From Alphaproteobacteria bacterium (GTDB lineage: Bacteria > Pseudomonadota > Alphaproteobacteria > JBKEAR01), in assembly GCA_047973205.1 (NCBI GenBank), contig JBKEBO010000058.1, positions 5,750 through 69,749 on the forward strand: a stretch of DNA of 64,000 nt, given 5' to 3'. Made by a program: the position numbers and the translations under genes. Numbering within the stretch: position 1 is the stretch's first letter; every line of letters begins with the position of its first letter. A model generated the notes under the pieces. It did no database searches. It saw only the letters and a program-made list of their open reading frames with translations, and was not told the DNA's origin. Positions 11,614-53,884 of the stretch are shown here, piece by piece.

Positions 11614-11619
11614 AGTATA

Positions 11620-11860
11620 AAAGTACAGATTTTTGTCCAAATTTATCCATAAAAAACCTGTTTCTGTCCATTTTTGTCCATTTTTTATCCCATCATAGCC
11701 AAAAAATTCCTGATAATGTCCATGCCTCTATAAAAGTTTCCCTTTTAAAGAGTGACAGTTTTGTGTCGATTCCTGTAAAAATTTGGATATAAATGGGTAA
11801 AAAATGGCAAATATGGGCAAATATGGGCAAATATGGGTAAAATCCTATTTAAGTCATATA
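11620..11860. repeat. Intergenic repetitive element, copy 1. On the left are 10-bp-phased (T)TGTCCA/TATCCA words. On the right are five tandem 10-mers aAATGGGyAA at 11791-11840.
   Basis: Read directly from the sequence. GTCCA/ATCCA words recur about every 10 bp across 11631-11690. The right-hand 10-mers are aaatgggtaa/aaaatggcaa/atatgggcaa/atatgggcaa/atatgggtaa. The architecture matches 27290-27500. Confidence 0.5.
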
Positions 11861-14261: not shown

Positions 14262-14298
14262 ATAAAAAATGAGAAACCGCCCTTTGAGAGAAGGGCGG
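14262..14298 (-). terminator. Rho-independent terminator candidate on the minus strand (8-bp GC-rich stem, then T-rich tract)
   Basis: The stem is ccgccctt/aagggcgg at 14277-14298, followed on the minus strand by gtttctcatttttta. It lies downstream of the ATP12-family gene and upstream of thiM. Confidence 0.5.
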
Positions 14299-14397
14299 TA
14301 TATTATATGAAAAAGAGAGTTATAACAGAGGAGATAAGAGATGAGAGTTTAAAAATTGCTAAAAGTTCTGCTCTGTATAACTTTAATATAGGTAAAG

Positions 14398-16925: not shown

Positions 16926-16964
16926 AAAGAGCCGCCTTTTTATTAAGGCGGTCTTTTGTTTTTT
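16926..16964. terminator. Bidirectional rho-independent terminator between the convergent OmpA-family gene and hemG
   Basis: The stem is gccgcc/ggcggt with T-rich runs on both sides. Confidence 0.5.
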
Positions 16965-25572: not shown

Positions 25573-27210
<1,638 letters not shown>

Positions 27211-27244
27211 GCTTTCCCACACATATAACCTTATACATAAAAAA

Positions 27245-27271
27245 CCTCTCCTATTTTGGAGAGGTTTTTTT
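27245..27271 (+). terminator. Rho-independent terminator of groESL
   Basis: The stem is cctctcc-tatttt-ggagagg, followed by 7 T's. Confidence 0.8.
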
Positions 27272-27289
27272 GTGGTTCTTATAACCTCA

Positions 27290-27500
27290 ATTTGGCAAAT
27301 TCTGGCAAGATTTGTCCATAAATATCCATTTTTGTCCATAAATTTTCAAACCACAACCAAAATAAGCCAAAATAAGCCAACCTAAAAGCCCTCCACCCTT
27401 GCCTAGGAGGATGGATAAAGATGGACAAAGATGGATGAGAGTGGATAAACTTTGCCAAAATTTGGATAAAAATGGATATTTATGGACAAGTTCGGACATA
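27290..27500. repeat. Intergenic repetitive element, copy 2. It holds three 10-bp-phased TTTGTCCATA/AATATCCATT words, two tandem aataagccaa units, and at least seven 10-bp-phased ATGGA(T/C)AAAG-type words in the opposite orientation.
   Basis: Read directly from the sequence. TCCAT starts at 27315/27325/27335. ATGGA or GTGGA starts at 27411/27421/27431/27441/27472/27482. Outer ttggcaaat…tttgccaaaa words form an imperfect palindrome of about 190 bp. Confidence 0.5.
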
Positions 27501-27534
27501 AAAAAAGCCCCTAAAATATTTTAAAAGGGGCTCT
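27499..27534 (-). terminator. Rho-independent terminator of aspA (minus strand)
   Basis: The stem is agcccct/aggggct with a 13-nt loop, followed on the minus strand by a T7 run. Confidence 0.7.
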
Positions 27535-27551
27535 TTTGGATTATCTTATTC

Positions 27552-28985
27552 TTACTTCTTTTTTGCTATTTTAATATCTGTGTGGGCATGGGGAGCAAGC
27601 ATTTTCTCGGGCTGGAGAATATCATCCACCTGCTCTTGGGTCAAAAGTCCACGTTCTAACACAAGGTCAACAACTTTTTGCCCTGTCTTTAATGATGTTT
27701 TCGCAATATCTGCAGCCGCCTCATAACCGATATAAGGATTAAGAGCTGTAGCCAAACCTGTTGAATTTTCGATATATTCTCGGCATACATCCTCATTAGC
27801 CGTAATCCCACGAATACAGTTATCCACCAAAGTACGACACCCTCTGTTAATACCATTCATCGAACTTAAAATTGAATATAAAATCACAGGCTCCATGGCA
27901 TTAAGTTCCAGCTGACCCGCCTCTGCAGCCATGGTTACAGTAATATCACGACCAATAACCGTAAAGGCTATTTGGTTCATCAATTCAGGAATAACAGGGT
28001 TCACTTTGCCTGGCATAATCGAAGAGCCTGGAAGCATGGGTGGAAGGTTAATCTCGTTCAGCCCTGTACGTGGCCCCATGGATAACAGACGGAGATCATT
28101 GGATATTTTAGAAAGCTTAACGGCTAATCGTTTAAGCACACCCGAAAGGGTTACATAAGCCCCTGTATCTTGTGTGGCTTCGACCAAGTTACCTGCTAAA
28201 GTGAGGGGTAAGCTTGAGATAAGTGCAAGCTCGCTAATGGCTTTTTGGGCATATTCTGGATGGGTGTTAATACCTGTACCAATGGCAGTTGCCCCAAGGT
28301 TCATCTCTCGCATAAGGCGGAAAGACGATTTTAGCCTTGCGATTTCTTCAGCCAAGGTTGTTGACCATGCCATAAATTCTTGGCCCAAAGTCATGGGTAC
28401 GGCATCTTGTAGCTGAGTTCGTCCCATCTTAAGAACATGCTTAAACTCCTCGCCTTTATCATATAAAGCACTGGAGATATACTCCACATCATCTTGAGAA
28501 CGTTTAAGCATAGTCATCATGGCAATCCGCATGGCAGTGGGGTAAACATCGTTGGTTGACTGGCTCATATTCACATCGTTATTGGGGTGGCAATATTGAT
28601 ATTCACCCTTTTTATGACCTAAGATTTCAAGGGCACGATTCGCAATGACTTCATTGGCATTCATATTAGTCGAAGTTCCTGCTCCGCCTTGGATTGCATC
28701 AACCACAAATTGGTCATTCCATTTACCATCGGCAACCTCTAAAGAGGCCTCTAAAATGGCCTTGCCTCTTTCTTCATCAAGCCCACCAACGGCCATATTC
28801 GCTTTAGTACAGGCATATTTTACCCAGCCTAAAGCACGAACCAAATCACGGTAATGCCCAATAGGCACACCTGAGACATGGTAGATATTTTTTGCCCTTT
28901 GGGTTTGTACGCCCCAATAGGCATCTGCAGGAACATCAATGGTTCCTAGGCTATCTTTTTCTGTACGAAATTCTTGTTTTGACAT
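27552..28985 (-). CDS. aspA: Aspartate ammonia-lyase
   Basis: The 477 aa product has the fumarate-lyase signature GSSIMPGKVNP. AspA-type blocks (GEYQY.HPNNDVN.SQSTNDVYPTA) distinguish it from FumC. Confidence 0.9.
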   Translation of the reverse strand: MSKQEFRTEKDSLGTIDVPADAYWGVQTQRAKNIYHVSGVPIGHYRDLVRALGWVKYACTKANMAVGGLDEERGKAILEASLEVADGKWNDQFVVDAIQGGAGTSTNMNANEVIANRALEILGHKKGEYQYCHPNNDVNMSQSTNDVYPTAMRIAMMTMLKRSQDDVEYISSALYDKGEEFKHVLKMGRTQLQDAVPMTLGQEFMAWSTTLAEEIARLKSSFRLMREMNLGATAIGTGINTHPEYAQKAISELALISSLPLTLAGNLVEATQDTGAYVTLSGVLKRLAVKLSKISNDLRLLSMGPRTGLNEINLPPMLPGSSIMPGKVNPVIPELMNQIAFTVIGRDITVTMAAEAGQLELNAMEPVILYSILSSMNGINRGCRTLVDNCIRGITANEDVCREYIENSTGLATALNPYIGYEAAADIAKTSLKTGQKVVDLVLERGLLTQEQVDDILQPEKMLAPHAHTDIKIAKKK

Positions 28986-52333: not shown

Positions 52334-53884
52334 ATGGCTGATAACATCAAAAATAACGCAAATCCTAGTAAAAGCACAGATGATAAAAAGGTCAAAGAGG
52401 CTAAGGATAAGGTAGAATCCGATGTAATAAAAAAGGATCAAAAAGATCCAAAATCATCTATAAATGATCCGAAGCCATCTATAAAAGAAGAAAAAAAACC
52501 AGTAAAGGTTGAGTCTTCGAAAGATAAAAAACAGCCTCCTCAGCCAATAAAAAATGAGCAAAAATTACCAAAAGATGAACCTAAAGTGGTGAAAGATGAG
52601 CCGAAACCACCAAAGAATGAGTTGAAGCCACAAAAAAGCGGGCAAAAAAAGTCAATCTCAGGATTTTTATGGCCTGTTGTTTGTTCAGTTGCAACTGCAG
52701 GTGGTTTAGTTGGGACGCAAAGTCTATGGATGAAAGATGTTGCTAGCATTGATAACCCTCAAGTTTCTTCTGAGACAGTTCAAATGGTAGAAACCAACAA
52801 AACAGCCATAGCTCAGCTTGCAGCTCAGTCAGGTGAAATTACCAACTTAAAATCTCAAATAGATGCTCTTACGGCAAAACTCCAAGAAAAAACGGAGGCA
52901 GCGGCGGTTGTAGTTGATACTCCTGAAACAGCCACAACGGTTGCAGAAGGTGCGGAAGATACCACCGAAGTGCCTGCAAAAGAAGTTACGGAAACTGTAG
53001 CAGAGGCAACAGAGGTTATTACTGATACGAGAGAAATAATGGATGCAAAAGTTACGGAAACTGTAGATGATGCAACAAAAATAGTTGATACAGCCACAAC
53101 AAAAACTGTAGATAATGGTGTTGATGATGCCGTTGAAACAGCAGGAATTCCTGAAGATGTATTATCAGCTGAGCCTGCAGTGGTTCAATCACAAGCAACA
53201 GCTGCTTTAGAGGCCAAAATTGCGGAGCTTTCTAAAGAAATTGCAGTCCTTAAAGAGCAACAACCACAGTTTGAAGGCTTTGAGGGAAGAGTGAGCCAAG
53301 TGGAAACACAGCTAGGGACTTTAAGCAGCTCAGTCAGTGATTTGCAATCGGGTATAAGTAGCAATAATACAGATATGGCCAAGCTTGTGGCTCTTGATAA
53401 TATTGCTCGTCAGATTGATTTAGGCCAAGATTATAGCCAGTCGCTGGATAATTTAGCAAGTGAGCTTCCTGAAGAGGCGAGTGGTGCAGTTGCGACATTA
53501 CAACAAAGTACTAAAAAATTAGCTCCTTTATATAAACTTCAGGCAAACTTTAACGATATTTCTCGTGATATTATTATTGCACAACGTAAAGAAAAAGCAG
53601 CTCAATCTGGTGATAAAAAGCAAGGGCTTCTTTCGAGCCTTAATGACCTTGTAACGGTTAGTCGCACTGATGGTGGAACAGAAGGAAGTGCAGATCGCCT
53701 TGTTTATAATATTAAACAGGCTCTACGCTCAGGTGATTTAAATGCTGTAAACCAGCTGCTTTCTTCGGCAAGTCCAGAGGTTCAAAAAGTTGTAGCCCCA
53801 TGGCAAGAACAGCTTAAAGCAAAACTTGATGCAGAGGCGGCCTTAAGTGAAATTCGTCAGCATCTTAGCGGTACAGGAGAGTAA
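52334..53884 (+). CDS. Mitofilin/Mic60-like coiled-coil inner-membrane protein (alphaproteobacterial Mic60/HemX-like homologue)
   Basis: The 516 aa product has a Lys/Pro-rich low-complexity N-terminus, a single TM (FLWPVVCSVATAGGLVG), long coiled-coil regions and a conserved C-terminal domain. It lies immediately upstream of a HemY_N-family gene, as in other alphaproteobacteria. Confidence 0.55.
   Translation: MADNIKNNANPSKSTDDKKVKEAKDKVESDVIKKDQKDPKSSINDPKPSIKEEKKPVKVESSKDKKQPPQPIKNEQKLPKDEPKVVKDEPKPPKNELKPQKSGQKKSISGFLWPVVCSVATAGGLVGTQSLWMKDVASIDNPQVSSETVQMVETNKTAIAQLAAQSGEITNLKSQIDALTAKLQEKTEAAAVVVDTPETATTVAEGAEDTTEVPAKEVTETVAEATEVITDTREIMDAKVTETVDDATKIVDTATTKTVDNGVDDAVETAGIPEDVLSAEPAVVQSQATAALEAKIAELSKEIAVLKEQQPQFEGFEGRVSQVETQLGTLSSSVSDLQSGISSNNTDMAKLVALDNIARQIDLGQDYSQSLDNLASELPEEASGAVATLQQSTKKLAPLYKLQANFNDISRDIIIAQRKEKAAQSGDKKQGLLSSLNDLVTVSRTDGGTEGSADRLVYNIKQALRSGDLNAVNQLLSSASPEVQKVVAPWQEQLKAKLDAEAALSEIRQHLSGTGE

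What the first reader, a model, noticed from the sequence alone, without database searches (positions are those of the whole stretch)
27290..27500. Second copy of the phased-repeat element between the groEL and aspA terminators, organised as a ~190-bp imperfect palindrome
Three 10-bp-spaced TTTGTCCATA/AATATCCATT words (27311-27340) are followed by ccacaaccaa/aataagccaa/aataagccaa. At least seven 10-bp-spaced ATGGA(T/C)AAAG-type words then run in the opposite orientation (27411-27490). The block is flanked by ttggcaaat…tttgccaaaa inverted ends and bracketed by the two gene terminators. It has the same architecture and word family as 11620-11860, so this is a repeat family, not coincidence. gtggataaa reverse-complements to TTTATCCAC, a near-consensus DnaA box, but the location is not where alphaproteobacterial oriC normally sits (hemE region).
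Basis: seen in the sequence. Interest (0 to 1): 0.6.

Follow-up and report, generated by a model that had tools for sequence, protein, structure and literature searches.

The report
Mirror-image decamer repeat between convergent genes
A 210-bp stretch between the groEL and aspA terminators is a real mirror-symmetric DNA element built from a 10-base word repeated once per helical turn, and it has a second copy 16 kb away. It looks like a lineage-specific, protein-binding or once-mobile intergenic repeat rather than a replication origin or a small RNA gene, and its function is not shown.

Summary
Positions 27291-27500 hold a left arm of 7 decamers (TTTRTCCAT type), a 30-bp core of 60% GC, and a right arm of 9 decamers (ATGGAYAAA type). 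Steps are 10 bp with one 11-bp step per arm. The block sits between two intrinsic terminators.

TGGAYA-N4-TGGAYA occurs 7 times in the window against 0.03 expected, and every hit lies in this block or in 11630-11845. The second block has the same layout and the same anchor-to-anchor length (169 vs 170 bp). It also fills a gap between convergent genes (yjdM|thiD).

The DnaA reading is weak: there is no perfect box and only 2+1 one-mismatch boxes. The sRNA reading has no support: no Rfam match and no promoter signal above shuffles.

My best reading (about 0.4) is a DNA-level element whose arms are helically phased binding sites for one oligomerising protein. It would be a MITE/foldback-like or att-arm-like module that survives in transcriptionally sheltered convergent gaps.

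The rivals are a host DnaA, gyrase or nucleoid-protein site, and a two-way Rho-loading (rut) site. No relatives exist in any searched collection, so mobility, copy number and binding partner remain untested. Interest is moderate.

The parts
27239..27270 (+). groEL intrinsic terminator. The hairpin has an A-run before it and a T-run after it, so it could work in both directions. It forms the left boundary of the sheltered gap.
   Evidence: Terminator scan: 13 pairs, 5 G-C pairs, loop of 6, tail TGTGGTTCTT preceded by TTTTTT. Inverted repeat I11 is 100% complementary.
27291..27310 (+). Two outlying TGGCAA-type decamers (TTTGGCAAAT, TCTGGCAAGA). They are in phase with the left arm but in the opposite orientation.
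   Evidence: Rows of 10. TRF period-10 array at 27289-27314. Three-word PWM score 16.4.
27311..27380 (-). Left arm: 7 decamers read on the minus strand as WTGGAYAAAW (ATGGACAAAT, ATGGATATTT, ATGGACAAAA, TTGAAAATTT, TTGGTTGTGG, TTGGCTTATT x2). Steps are 10,10,10,11,10,10 bp. GC is 29%.
   Evidence: nhmmer arm profile E=1e-18. GC.
27381..27410 (.). Core: CCTAAAAGCCCTCCACCCTTGCCTAGGAGG, 60% GC. It contains CCTCC...GGAGG and the palindrome CCTAGG. The dyad axis of the outer arms is at 27400/27401.
   Evidence: The dyad axis follows from the anchors 27316-27485. The core cannot be aligned with the core of copy 1 (A1).
27411..27500 (+). Right arm: 9 decamers (ATGGATAAAG, ATGGACAAAG, ATGGATGAGA, GTGGATAAAC, TTGCCAAAAT, TTGGATAAAA, ATGGATATTT, ATGGACAAGT, TCGGACATAA). 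Steps are 10 bp with one 11-bp step. GC is 33%.
   Evidence: (family D1). nhmmer E=1e-18.
27501..27537 (-). aspA terminator hairpin (GCCCCT...AGGGGC). It has a T7 run on the minus strand and TCTTTT on the plus strand. It forms the right boundary of the sheltered gap.
   Evidence: Inverted repeat I13. A 7-pair stem appears in the folds.
11630..11723 (-). Copy 1, left arm: TTGGACAAAA, ATGGATAAAT, CAGGTTTTTT, ATGGACAGAA, ATGGACAAAA, TGGGATAAAA, TTGGCTATGA and further weak words. Steps are 10-11 bp, averaging about 10.5. It starts 17 bp after the yjdM/phnA stop codon.
   Evidence: nhmmer E=2e-14. YjdM Pfam assignment.
11724..11780 (.). Copy 1 core. It contains a small hairpin CTCTATAAAAG-TTTCC-CTTTTAAAGAG (11726-11752). 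It is unrelated in sequence to the core of copy 2.
   Evidence: Alignment A1.
11781..11845 (+). Copy 1, right arm: TTGGATATAA, ATGGGTAAAA, ATGGCAAATA, TGGGCAAATA x2, TGGGTAAAAT. It ends 16 bp before the thiD stop codon.
   Evidence: TRF 11806-11841: period 10, 3.6 copies, 96% matches.. nhmmer E=2.5e-13. ThiD Pfam assignment.

Best explanation
The block is one copy of a lineage-specific, dyad-symmetric intergenic DNA element about 210 bp long.

Anatomy:
- Each arm is an array of 7-9 decamers with consensus (A/T)TGGA(T/C)AAA(A/T), spaced 10-11 bp apart.
- At that spacing the invariant TGG and the A-run 4 bp after it recur on one face of the helix.
- The two arms are mirror images around a short core that is not conserved between copies.

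Proposed mechanism: the element works at the DNA level as a nucleoprotein-assembly module. One DNA-binding protein that oligomerises would occupy the phased words of each arm cooperatively, and the two oppositely oriented arms would be brought together. This is how transposon ends with several subterminal sites, foldback elements and attP arm-site arrays work.

On this reading the element is most likely a non-autonomous (MITE/foldback-like or att-arm-derived) module. Its protein partner, a transposase, recombinase or domesticated relative, would be encoded elsewhere in the genome. Copies persist in gaps between convergent genes, where they break no promoter. In copy 2 the element is also shielded from transcription by a terminator on each side.

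Shown: the anatomy, the phasing, the statistical excess, the family relationship of four arms, the conserved unit length, the convergent-gap location, and the predicted curvature.

Inferred: that a protein binds the words, which protein it is, and that the element is or was mobile.
For: 1. Helical phasing. Steps of 10-11 bp, averaging 10.1-10.5, hold over 70-90 bp per arm. This is the geometry of cooperative protein arrays on DNA.
2. Family and unit. All four arms align (A1). An arm profile finds exactly four arms and no solo arm in 64 kb. Both copies match one inverted pattern with spans of 169 and 170 bp although their cores are unalignable.
3. TIR-like ends. The outer 39 nt of the arms of copy 2 are 85% complementary (I2).
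4. Location. Both copies fill gaps between convergent genes: yjdM|thiD and groEL|aspA. The window has only about 7 such gaps among roughly 59 intergenic regions. An ordinary convergent gap here holds just one bidirectional terminator (16931-16952).
5. Shielding. The better-preserved copy 2 is insulated by intrinsic terminators on both sides. That argues against an RNA-level role as the reason for its preservation.
6. Same architecture in known systems.
   - Viral contig L280 carries four TTTGTCCAT decamers at 10-bp phase plus inverted TGGACA words, 54 bp from a tyrosine integrase gene.
   - L205 has inverted phased TTACCA words beside an integrase fragment.
   - L280 is the best outside match to the arm profile (E=1.7e-6), but that locus was pre-selected by a pattern.
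   - Multi-copy foldback-like families built from inverted 10-bp units exist in metagenomes.
7. Predicted curvature. The arms fall in the top 0.05-3% of the window for predicted intrinsic bend over 70 bp (wedge parameters recalled from memory).
8. Local identical neighbours (AATAAGCCAA x2, ATATGGGCAA x3) show the arrays grow by unit duplication.
Against: - No target-site duplication flanks either copy.
- No transposase, integrase or RAYT gene lies in the 64-kb window.
- The two copies are far more diverged than typical recent MITE copies: arms are about 60% identical between copies, against 77% within copy 2.
- No other copy or relative was found in metagenomes, viral contigs, phage or plasmid records, or the protein collection. 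Mobility and copy number therefore rest on two copies.
- Word information content is low. Only TGG and AA are strongly conserved. That would also fit a purely structural (bendability) signal or an RNA-level YC signal.
- The cores differ between copies, which does not fit a shared recombination crossover site.
Confidence: 0.4

Rival explanations
1. It is a host chromosomal protein-binding site with a housekeeping role. One version is a DnaA-titrating or reactivating box cluster of the datA/DARS/B. subtilis DBC type. Another is a wrapping site for gyrase or a nucleoid protein, placed where convergent transcription piles up positive supercoils. Phased low-specificity words on both arms would let an oligomer or a two-fold symmetric enzyme wrap about 200 bp.
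For: - Helical phasing and dyad symmetry.
- GG/CC and A-runs alternate half a turn apart, which is a bendability pattern.
- Predicted curvature is in the top few percent of the window.
- Insulation by terminators suits a DNA site that must not be transcribed.
- It lies downstream of groEL, usually a very highly expressed gene, in a convergent gap.
- Some words fit relaxed DnaA boxes: TTATCCACT, TTATCCAAA, TTATCCATA.
- From established knowledge: E. coli oriC has two oppositely oriented arrays of weak DnaA sites, and B. subtilis DnaA-box clusters lie in intergenic regions (the ChAP-chip paper was listed but not read here).
Against: - Only 3 one-mismatch DnaA boxes lie in the two elements, and none is perfect.
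- The consensus has T at DnaA-box position 8.
- No origin-linked genes are nearby.
- A pure wrapping signal would not need a consistent word polarity within each arm.
- The unit length is conserved while the cores are unrelated, which looks more like a common-descent unit.
- Nothing here tests binding.
Confidence: 0.2
2. It is a two-way Rho-dependent terminator. Each arm, read on the sense strand of the gene running into it, gives a G-poor RNA with a UCC/CCA about every 10 nt over 70-90 nt, which is an idealised Rho loading (rut) site. Two convergent genes need two such arms in mirror orientation, and that alone would create the imperfect palindrome. The second arm then pairs with the first to form a pausing hairpin.
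For: - C/G ratio is 2.3-3.3 in all four arms on the incoming sense strand.
- The arms are among the strongest period-10 YC signals in the window: amplitude 9.2-10.5 against a mean of 2.3-2.5 and a 99.9th percentile of 8.1-8.6.
- The literature describes rut sites as about 60-80 nt, C>G, with YC dimers spaced around 10 nt or 11-13 nt (PMC13613805; PMC6407284).
- Copy 1 fills a convergent gap that has no canonical intrinsic terminator.
- The only strongly conserved bases are the CC and a U-run.
Against: - Copy 2, the better-preserved copy, lies behind strong intrinsic terminators on both sides, so little RNA should reach it.
- Because the family is dyad-symmetric, the agreement in orientation is worth at most one coin flip.
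- No solo arms occur after tandemly oriented genes.
- The occasional 11-bp steps that keep a phase of about 10.2-10.5 bp, and the conserved unit length of 169/170 bp, have no rationale at the RNA level.
- Folding shows no strand bias from G-U pairs.
- High C/G with spaced YC is common in random sequence (PMC13613805).
Confidence: 0.2
3. It is a by-product of replication slippage. A 10-bp AT-rich unit expanded locally in a neutral spacer and was copied in inverted form. There would be no trans-acting partner and no function.
For: - Neighbouring units are often identical: AATAAGCCAA x2, and GGCAAATATG x3.6 at 96%.
- Word information content is low.
- No homologues were found anywhere.
Against: - Two unlinked loci share the same words, the same mirror layout and the same 169/170-bp span.
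- GG is invariant in 56 of 58 positions while other positions drift.
- No comparable array occurs in any other intergenic region of the window or in 1.46 Mb of control bacterial loci (these are mostly GC-rich, so the control is weak).
Confidence: 0.1
4. It encodes small RNAs. One version has divergent transcripts starting inside the element and ending at the two bidirectional terminators. The plus-strand right arm would carry 8-9 (A/U)UGGA motifs, like a CsrA/RsmA-sponge RNA. The other version is a single long hairpin RNA.
For: - There are terminators on both sides that could work in both directions.
- GGA motifs are repeated.
- A strong long hairpin forms on either strand, with z-scores from -4.7 to -6.5.
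Against: - No Rfam family reaches threshold. Sub-threshold matches are to generic long hairpins.
- Promoter-like sites are weak (9 of 12 matches) and no more frequent than in shuffles: 3 found against 1.4+/-1.1, and 1 against 2.0+/-1.6.
- Copy 1 has no terminators.
- An exact 10-nt phase is not a feature of known sponge RNAs, which present GGA in hairpin loops (established knowledge).
- There is no strand asymmetry in folding.
Confidence: 0.05

Closest known systems
Bacterial MITEs and interspersed palindromic repeats (Correia/NEMIS, ERIC/IRU, RUP, Rickettsia RPE)
   Same: A unit of 100-250 bp with inverted arms. Several copies per genome. It sits in intergenic regions, typically at gene 3' ends, and can fold into a long hairpin if transcribed.
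   Different: The arms here are internally periodic arrays of 7-9 decamers, not a simple terminal inverted repeat. No target-site duplication is seen. The copies are very diverged. No cognate transposase is known.
Foldback-type elements (Drosophila FB and similar), whose inverted arms are made of short tandem repeats
   Same: The arms are inverted arrays of about 10-bp units. The metagenome scan found multi-copy families of exactly this build, with CCCCATTAAT/CTCCATTAAT units.
   Different: Those families sit on contigs with almost no long ORFs, so they are probably eukaryotic DNA. Their words differ. To my knowledge this class has not been described for bacteria.
attP arm-type site arrays of tyrosine integrases (lambda P/P' arms; viral contigs L280 and L205 here)
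   Same: About 10-bp words are set at 10-11-bp phase in oppositely oriented groups around a core, spanning 150-250 bp. L280 even uses TTTGTCCAT.
   Different: No integrase gene is adjacent or anywhere in the window. There are 16 words where attP sites have 4-7. The two copies share no core sequence (A1). The element lies between housekeeping genes, not at the edge of an island.
DnaA-box arrays (E. coli oriC low-affinity arrays; datA/DARS; B. subtilis DnaA-box clusters)
   Same: Two oppositely oriented arrays of phased 9-10-bp sites. The location is intergenic, away from promoters. Some words are one mismatch from TTATCCACA.
   Different: The word consensus is TTRTCCAT and the box count is low. 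The spacing is 10 bp rather than 11. The gene context is not origin-linked.
Rho utilisation (rut) sites
   Same: 70-90 nt, C>G, with YC about every 10 nt on the sense strand of the incoming gene.
   Different: Natural rut sites are not tandem copies of one word or parts of a palindrome. Copy 2 lies downstream of intrinsic terminators.
MraZ operators (GTG(G/T) boxes with 6-nt spacers) and other oligomer-on-direct-repeat regulators (OmpR/PhoB family, BldC, ParR-parC)
   Same: Direct repeats with a 10-bp period, read cooperatively by an oligomer. The core resembles TGG (PMC12957436).
   Different: MraZ operators have 3-4 boxes upstream of mraZ. Here there are 7-9 per arm, the first base is A or T rather than G in 27 of 29 words, and the element sits between gene 3' ends with no promoter.

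Membership tests
DnaA-box cluster / oriC-type array | Several 9-mers matching TTATCCACA with at most one mismatch, clustered within a few hundred bp | tested here: not met
   No perfect box occurs in the window. There are 33 one-mismatch boxes in 64 kb against 19 expected. Only 27440, 27461 and 11643 fall in the elements.
DnaA-box cluster / oriC-type array | Linkage to origin genes (dnaA, dnaN, hemE, parAB, gidAB) or a GC-skew switch | tested here: not met
   Pfam on all 56 ORFs of at least 120 aa found none of these. GC skew follows gene orientation only.
DnaA-box cluster / oriC-type array | DnaA binding in vivo or in vitro | not testable with these tools
   This needs ChIP, DAP-seq or footprinting.
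MITE | Terminal inverted repeats | tested here: met
   Arms 27312-27350 / 27451-27489 are 39 nt and 85% complementary. All four arms align.
MITE | Target-site duplication flanking the element | tested here: not met
   Copy 1 has no flanking direct repeat. Copy 2 has only a low-complexity ACATAAAAAA pair, which belongs to the two terminators' A-runs.
MITE | Many dispersed copies in the genome, plus empty sites in relatives | tested here: inconclusive
   Two copies lie in 64 kb. The rest of the genome and any close relative are unavailable: AspA is at most 60% and GroEL at most 80% identical to anything else. The only other assembly covering this site is the same organism, with an identical sequence over 27297-27500.
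MITE | A cognate autonomous element with the same ends and a transposase | tested here: inconclusive
   None is in the window (Pfam calls). None was found by pattern or BLAST in metagenomes, viral contigs, phages or plasmids. The genome outside the window could not be searched.
REP/BIME | A 20-40-bp GC-rich palindromic unit, with an associated RAYT (Y1 transposase) | tested here: not met
   The units are AT-rich 10-mers that are not individually palindromic. No Y1_Tnp hit is in the window (Pfam calls).
attP-type recombination site | An adjacent tyrosine recombinase gene | tested here: not met
   No PF00589 protein is in the window. In contrast, L280 and L205 have one.
attP-type recombination site | A common core (crossover) sequence shared by sites of one recombinase | tested here: not met
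   The cores of the two copies cannot be aligned (A1).
Rho-dependent terminator (rut) | 60-80 nt, C>G, regularly spaced YC on the transcribed strand | tested here: met
   C/G is 2.3-3.3. The period-10 YC amplitude lies beyond the 99.9th percentile for three arms.
Rho-dependent terminator (rut) | The site is transcribed and unstructured, and termination is sensitive to Rho inhibition | not testable with these tools
   Copy 2 lies behind intrinsic terminators. The arms pair with each other if the whole element is transcribed. This needs Term-seq with and without bicyclomycin.
Known small RNA / cis-regulatory RNA family | A match to a curated covariance model at its gathering score | tested here: not met
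   There were 0 matches at gathering thresholds. The best sub-threshold match scores 30.6 bits against a gathering score of 139.7.
MraZ operator | 3-4 GTG(G/T) boxes with 6-nt spacers upstream of mraZ | tested here: not met
   Only 1 of 29 words starts GTGG. The element lies between gene 3' ends. No MraZ gene is in the window. The motif is taken from PMC12957436.

The most novel reading that the evidence does not exclude
The elements are dedicated, transcription-insulated chromosomal stations placed in convergent-gene gaps. They would be sequence-encoded, two-fold symmetric wrapping or loading sites, built from helically phased TGG/A-tract decamers, for a host machine such as gyrase, the initiator DnaA or a ring-forming regulator. 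Alternatively they are natural idealised two-way Rho loading sites. Either would be a way of hard-wiring supercoil relief, initiator buffering or termination into the spacer between convergent genes that has not been described.
Probability: 0.15. Interest if true: 0.75.

Novelty: new variant of a known kind. Interest (0 to 1): 0.4.

Why it matters
If the arms are binding arrays for one protein, this is a compact natural scaffold of 16 phased sites in 210 bp. That would make it an easy bait to identify an unknown DNA-binding or transposition system in a poorly sampled alphaproteobacterial lineage.

If it is mobile, it would extend foldback-type architecture, with arms made of tandem decamers, to bacteria.

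If instead it acts on supercoiling, initiator levels or Rho loading at convergent genes, it would be a rare case where such a function is readable directly from sequence.

As it stands it is a well-defined curiosity. It should also be masked or annotated, so that it is not mistaken for an origin, an sRNA gene or the spurious 70-aa ORF that spans it.

Tried and rejected
1. Synteny and empty-site test. The single genome-contig scan, run with AspA, returned nothing above 60% identity, and the hits were mostly Beta- and Gammaproteobacteria. No relatives were available to compare.
2. GroEL homologues. Only the MAG itself is close. The three high-scoring 698-734-aa proteins are odd GroELs: P0004 sits on a 69%-GC contig, and their GroEL-coding regions are 72-79% identical to the window's GroEL.
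3. Exact-protein look-ups.
   - They returned only short Logan contigs of the same organism (SRR30067251, SRR30067236).
   - The one contig that covers the element is identical across it; its single mismatch lies in aspA.
   - The extra 3.4 kb beyond the left end of the window has no arm.
   - The NCBI contig is not retrievable.
4. BLAST of the element against phage and plasmid records gave only chance 20-36-nt matches.
5. Pattern scans.
   - A three-word pattern is too unspecific in viral contigs, with more than 120 hits.
   - A strict inverted pattern that hits both copies gave 0 hits in metagenomes.
   - A looser one gave 66 metagenome hits, none with the window's words. Most are probably eukaryotic foldback repeats or unrelated loci.
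   - An exact 25-mer of the arm gave 0 viral hits.
6. The 70-aa ORF spanning the element was searched against 5.8 billion proteins. Nothing was found, so it is treated as spurious.
7. Looking for solo arms or weaker arrays elsewhere in the window, with an nhmmer profile, TGG chains and PWM triples, found none.
8. A strand test using G-U pairs and fold energy showed no asymmetry: -61.4 vs -60.8 and -58.8 vs -57.0 kcal/mol.
9. Concerted evolution of the arms. The two arms are more alike within copy 2 (40/52) than between copies, but not within copy 1 (32/52), so the result is inconsistent.
10. MraZ, OmpR/PhoB, Tn7-end and CtrA readings were considered from memory and from one paper. I rejected them as memberships because the core bases or the context do not fit. 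They remain only as analogies.
Full report
**What is in the sequence**

The region 27291-27500 lies between the stop codon of groEL (25576-27210, plus strand) and that of an aspartate ammonia-lyase/fumarase-family gene. That gene is at 27552-28985 on the minus strand and carries Pfam Lyase_1 and FumaraseC_C.

Printed in rows of ten, the periodicity is plain:
- Two outlying TGGCAA words lie at 27291-27310.
- The left arm, 27311-27380, has seven decamers that read on the minus strand as ATGGACAAAT, ATGGATATTT, ATGGACAAAA, TTGAAAATTT, TTGGTTGTGG and TTGGCTTATT x2.
- The core, 27381-27410, is 30 bp at 60% GC.
- The right arm, 27411-27500, has nine decamers of the ATGGAYAAAG type.

Each arm has one 11-bp step, and the mean period is 10.1-10.2 bp. 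Copy 1's left arm averages about 10.5 bp. The arms are 29-33% GC against 39% for the window.

The block is bracketed by the groEL terminator (27239-27270) and by a hairpin with T-runs at 27501-27537 that serves aspA. Both have A-runs upstream and T-runs downstream, so they could act in both directions.

**Is it more than chance?**

Yes.
- TGGAYA-N4-TGGAYA occurs 7 times against 0.03 expected, and all hits lie in the two elements.
- Word density singles out only these two loci.
- Tandem Repeats Finder and the repeat finder independently report period-10 arrays and inverted arms of 39 nt at 85% and 44 nt at 77%.
- A PWM built from 29 words gives three-word scores of 29-32 bits for the five best arrays, all inside the elements. 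The background maximum is 15.7 bits.

The one error is that 'tttgccaaaa' is an internal word of the right arm and not an end.

**The second copy and the family**

The block at 11630-11845 has the same layout: a left arm of minus-oriented words, a core, and a right arm of plus-oriented words that includes TGGGCAAATA x3.
- The outer 45-60 bp of all four arms align (A1).
- A profile built from the arms finds exactly those four places in 64 kb, at E values of 1e-13 to 1e-18. The next hit is at E=0.3.
- One inverted pattern hits both copies with spans of 169 and 170 bp, although the cores are unalignable.

Both copies fill gaps between convergent genes: yjdM/phnA(+)|thiD(-) and groEL(+)|aspA(-). 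The window has about seven convergent gaps among roughly 59 intergenic regions. The ordinary state of such a gap is a single bidirectional terminator, as at 16931-16952. Copy 1's gap has no canonical terminator.

**What is conserved**

Across 29 words only T2, G3, G4 (G3G4 in 56 of 58 positions), A7 and A8 carry much information. In effect a TGG, and an A-run half a helical turn later, recur every turn.

With the Bolshoy-Trifonov wedge model (parameters recalled from memory), the arms rank in the top 0.05-3% of the window for predicted bend over 70 bp. Neighbouring words are often identical, so the arrays grow by unit duplication.

DnaA boxes:
- There is no perfect TTATCCACA in the window.
- Of 33 one-mismatch boxes, only 2 lie in this copy and 1 in copy 1.
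- The consensus TTRTCCAT has T at box position 8.
- There are no origin-linked genes and no skew switch.

The reading is weak, though the organism's own DnaA specificity is unknown.

sRNA or cruciform:
- The element folds as a long imperfect hairpin on either strand. RNA z-scores run from -4.7 to -6.5, and the DNA fold gives -5.0. Any palindrome would do this.
- There is no strand bias.
- No Rfam family reaches threshold.
- Promoter-like sites are weak and no more frequent than in shuffles.

**Searching for relatives**

The organism is an isolated lineage. NCBI names it 'MAG: Alphaproteobacteria bacterium'. Its GroEL is at most 80% identical to anything else among the best-scoring homologues from the 5.8-billion-protein collection. 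AspA is at most 60% identical to anything in 185,579 species genomes, and its best hits are Beta- and Gammaproteobacteria.

Only short Logan contigs of the same organism were retrievable. The one that covers the element is identical across it.

BLAST against phages and plasmids, a strict pattern in metagenomes, an exact arm 25-mer in viral contigs, and a protein search with the spanning ORF all found nothing. Copy number, empty sites and any autonomous partner therefore could not be tested.

**What looser patterns found**

- In viral contigs, phased decamer arrays sit next to tyrosine integrase genes. L280 has four TTTGTCCAT words at 10-bp phase plus inverted TGGACA words, 54 bp from an integrase gene. 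L205 has inverted TTACCA words beside an integrase fragment. L280 is the best outside match to the arm profile, but it was pre-selected by a pattern.
- In metagenomes, the inverted two-plus-two-word pattern found 66 loci. These include multi-copy families built from inverted CCCCATTAAT/CTCCATTAAT decamers on contigs with almost no long ORFs, so they are probably eukaryotic foldback-type repeats.

None of these shares the window's words. They show that the architecture itself is a recurrent solution for elements recognised by a recombinase or transposase: two mirror arrays of about 10-bp units, roughly 150-170 bp across.

**Weighing the mechanisms**

I favour a DNA-level element for four reasons:
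- The phase tracks the helical repeat, including the corrective 11-bp steps.
- The unit length is conserved while the core is not.
- There are never solo arms.
- The better-preserved copy is shielded from transcription on both sides.

The closest working analogies are transposon ends with several subterminal sites, foldback elements and attP arms. I therefore read the arms as cooperative binding arrays for one oligomerising protein. The element would be a non-autonomous (MITE/foldback-like or att-arm-derived) module that survives in harmless convergent gaps (confidence 0.4).

Against this reading: no target-site duplication is present, no transposase or integrase lies in the window, the two copies are strongly diverged, and word information content is low.

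**Rivals**

Host housekeeping site (0.2). This could be DnaA titration, or a gyrase or nucleoid-protein wrapping site where convergent transcription builds positive supercoils.
- For: the bendability pattern, the curvature, the insulation, and the position downstream of groEL all fit.
- Against: there is no positive evidence of binding, and the DnaA match is poor.

Two-way Rho loading site (0.2).
- For: each arm on the incoming sense strand has C/G of 2.3-3.3 and one of the strongest period-10 YC signals in the window. This matches published rut descriptions, and copy 1's gap lacks an intrinsic terminator.
- Against: copy 2 lies behind strong terminators, the orientation agreement is worth only one coin flip for a dyad-symmetric family, and RNA-level function explains neither the helical phase nor the fixed length.

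Slippage by-product (0.1) and small RNAs (0.05) are less likely.

**Verdict**

The DnaA and sRNA readings are not supported.

It is best filed as a new variant of a known kind: an interspersed palindromic repeat with phased-decamer arms. It fails the tested membership criteria for DnaA-box clusters, REP/BIME, attP sites, MraZ operators and Rfam RNAs. It meets only some MITE criteria: terminal inverted repeats are present, a target-site duplication is absent, and copy number and a partner element are untestable here.

Interest is moderate at 0.4. The anatomy is unusually clean and the partner protein should be easy to fish out, but everything beyond the anatomy is inference from two copies.

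Noticed in passing
window 27552-28985 (-): The aspartate ammonia-lyase gene has no relative above 60% identity in one genome per 185,579 species. Its best hits are Beta- and Gammaproteobacteria (Rhodocyclaceae, Enterobacteriaceae, Caballeronia), and alphaproteobacterial hits reach only 44-46%. It may have been acquired horizontally. The element sits at the groEL|aspA junction.
   Followed up: no
window 27287-27499 (-): A 70-aa ATG-started ORF spans the element almost exactly. It has no homologue in 5.8 billion proteins. Because the DNA has a 10-bp period, which is not a multiple of 3, it is almost certainly spurious, but gene callers could annotate it.
   Followed up: yes
L280 3545-3626 and 3639-4634: A viral contig carries four TTTGTCCAT decamers at 10-bp phase plus inverted TGGACA words, 54 bp downstream of a tyrosine integrase gene (PF00589). 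This is an attP-type arm array that uses the same decamer as the window element.
   Followed up: partly
L208-L213, L221, L228, L237-L243, L247, L249, L252, L260, L261, L267, L269, L270 (JAAUYA01/JAAUXW01 metagenome contigs): A very abundant family of inverted arrays of CCCCATTAAT/CTCCATTAAT decamers (foldback-like). The contigs have almost no long ORFs, so this is probably eukaryotic host DNA in a metagenome.
   Followed up: partly
window 52441-52488 and 52592-52635: Two 21-bp tandem repeats (2.2-2.3 copies each) lie inside ORF 52334-53884, a 516-aa protein with no significant Pfam family. This would be a 7-residue repeat in a protein of unknown function just upstream of a HemY-like gene.
   Followed up: no
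window 11614-11860: The yjdM|thiD convergent gap has no canonical intrinsic terminator on either strand. Other convergent or 3' gaps do have bidirectional ones, for example 16931-16952 and 14276-14299. Copy 1 may be the only thing that separates these two transcription units.
   Followed up: partly
window 27235-27244 and 27496-27505: An exact 10-nt direct repeat, ACATAAAAAA, precedes both terminator stems flanking copy 2 (D4). It is low-complexity and probably chance, but it is the only candidate flanking duplication.
   Followed up: partly
L082-L084 (P0002-P0004): Three GroEL proteins of 698-734 aa score nearly as high as the self-hit because their contigs give overlapping or duplicated GroEL segments. 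P0004 lies on a 69%-GC contig. They may be internally duplicated or mis-assembled chaperonins.
   Followed up: no
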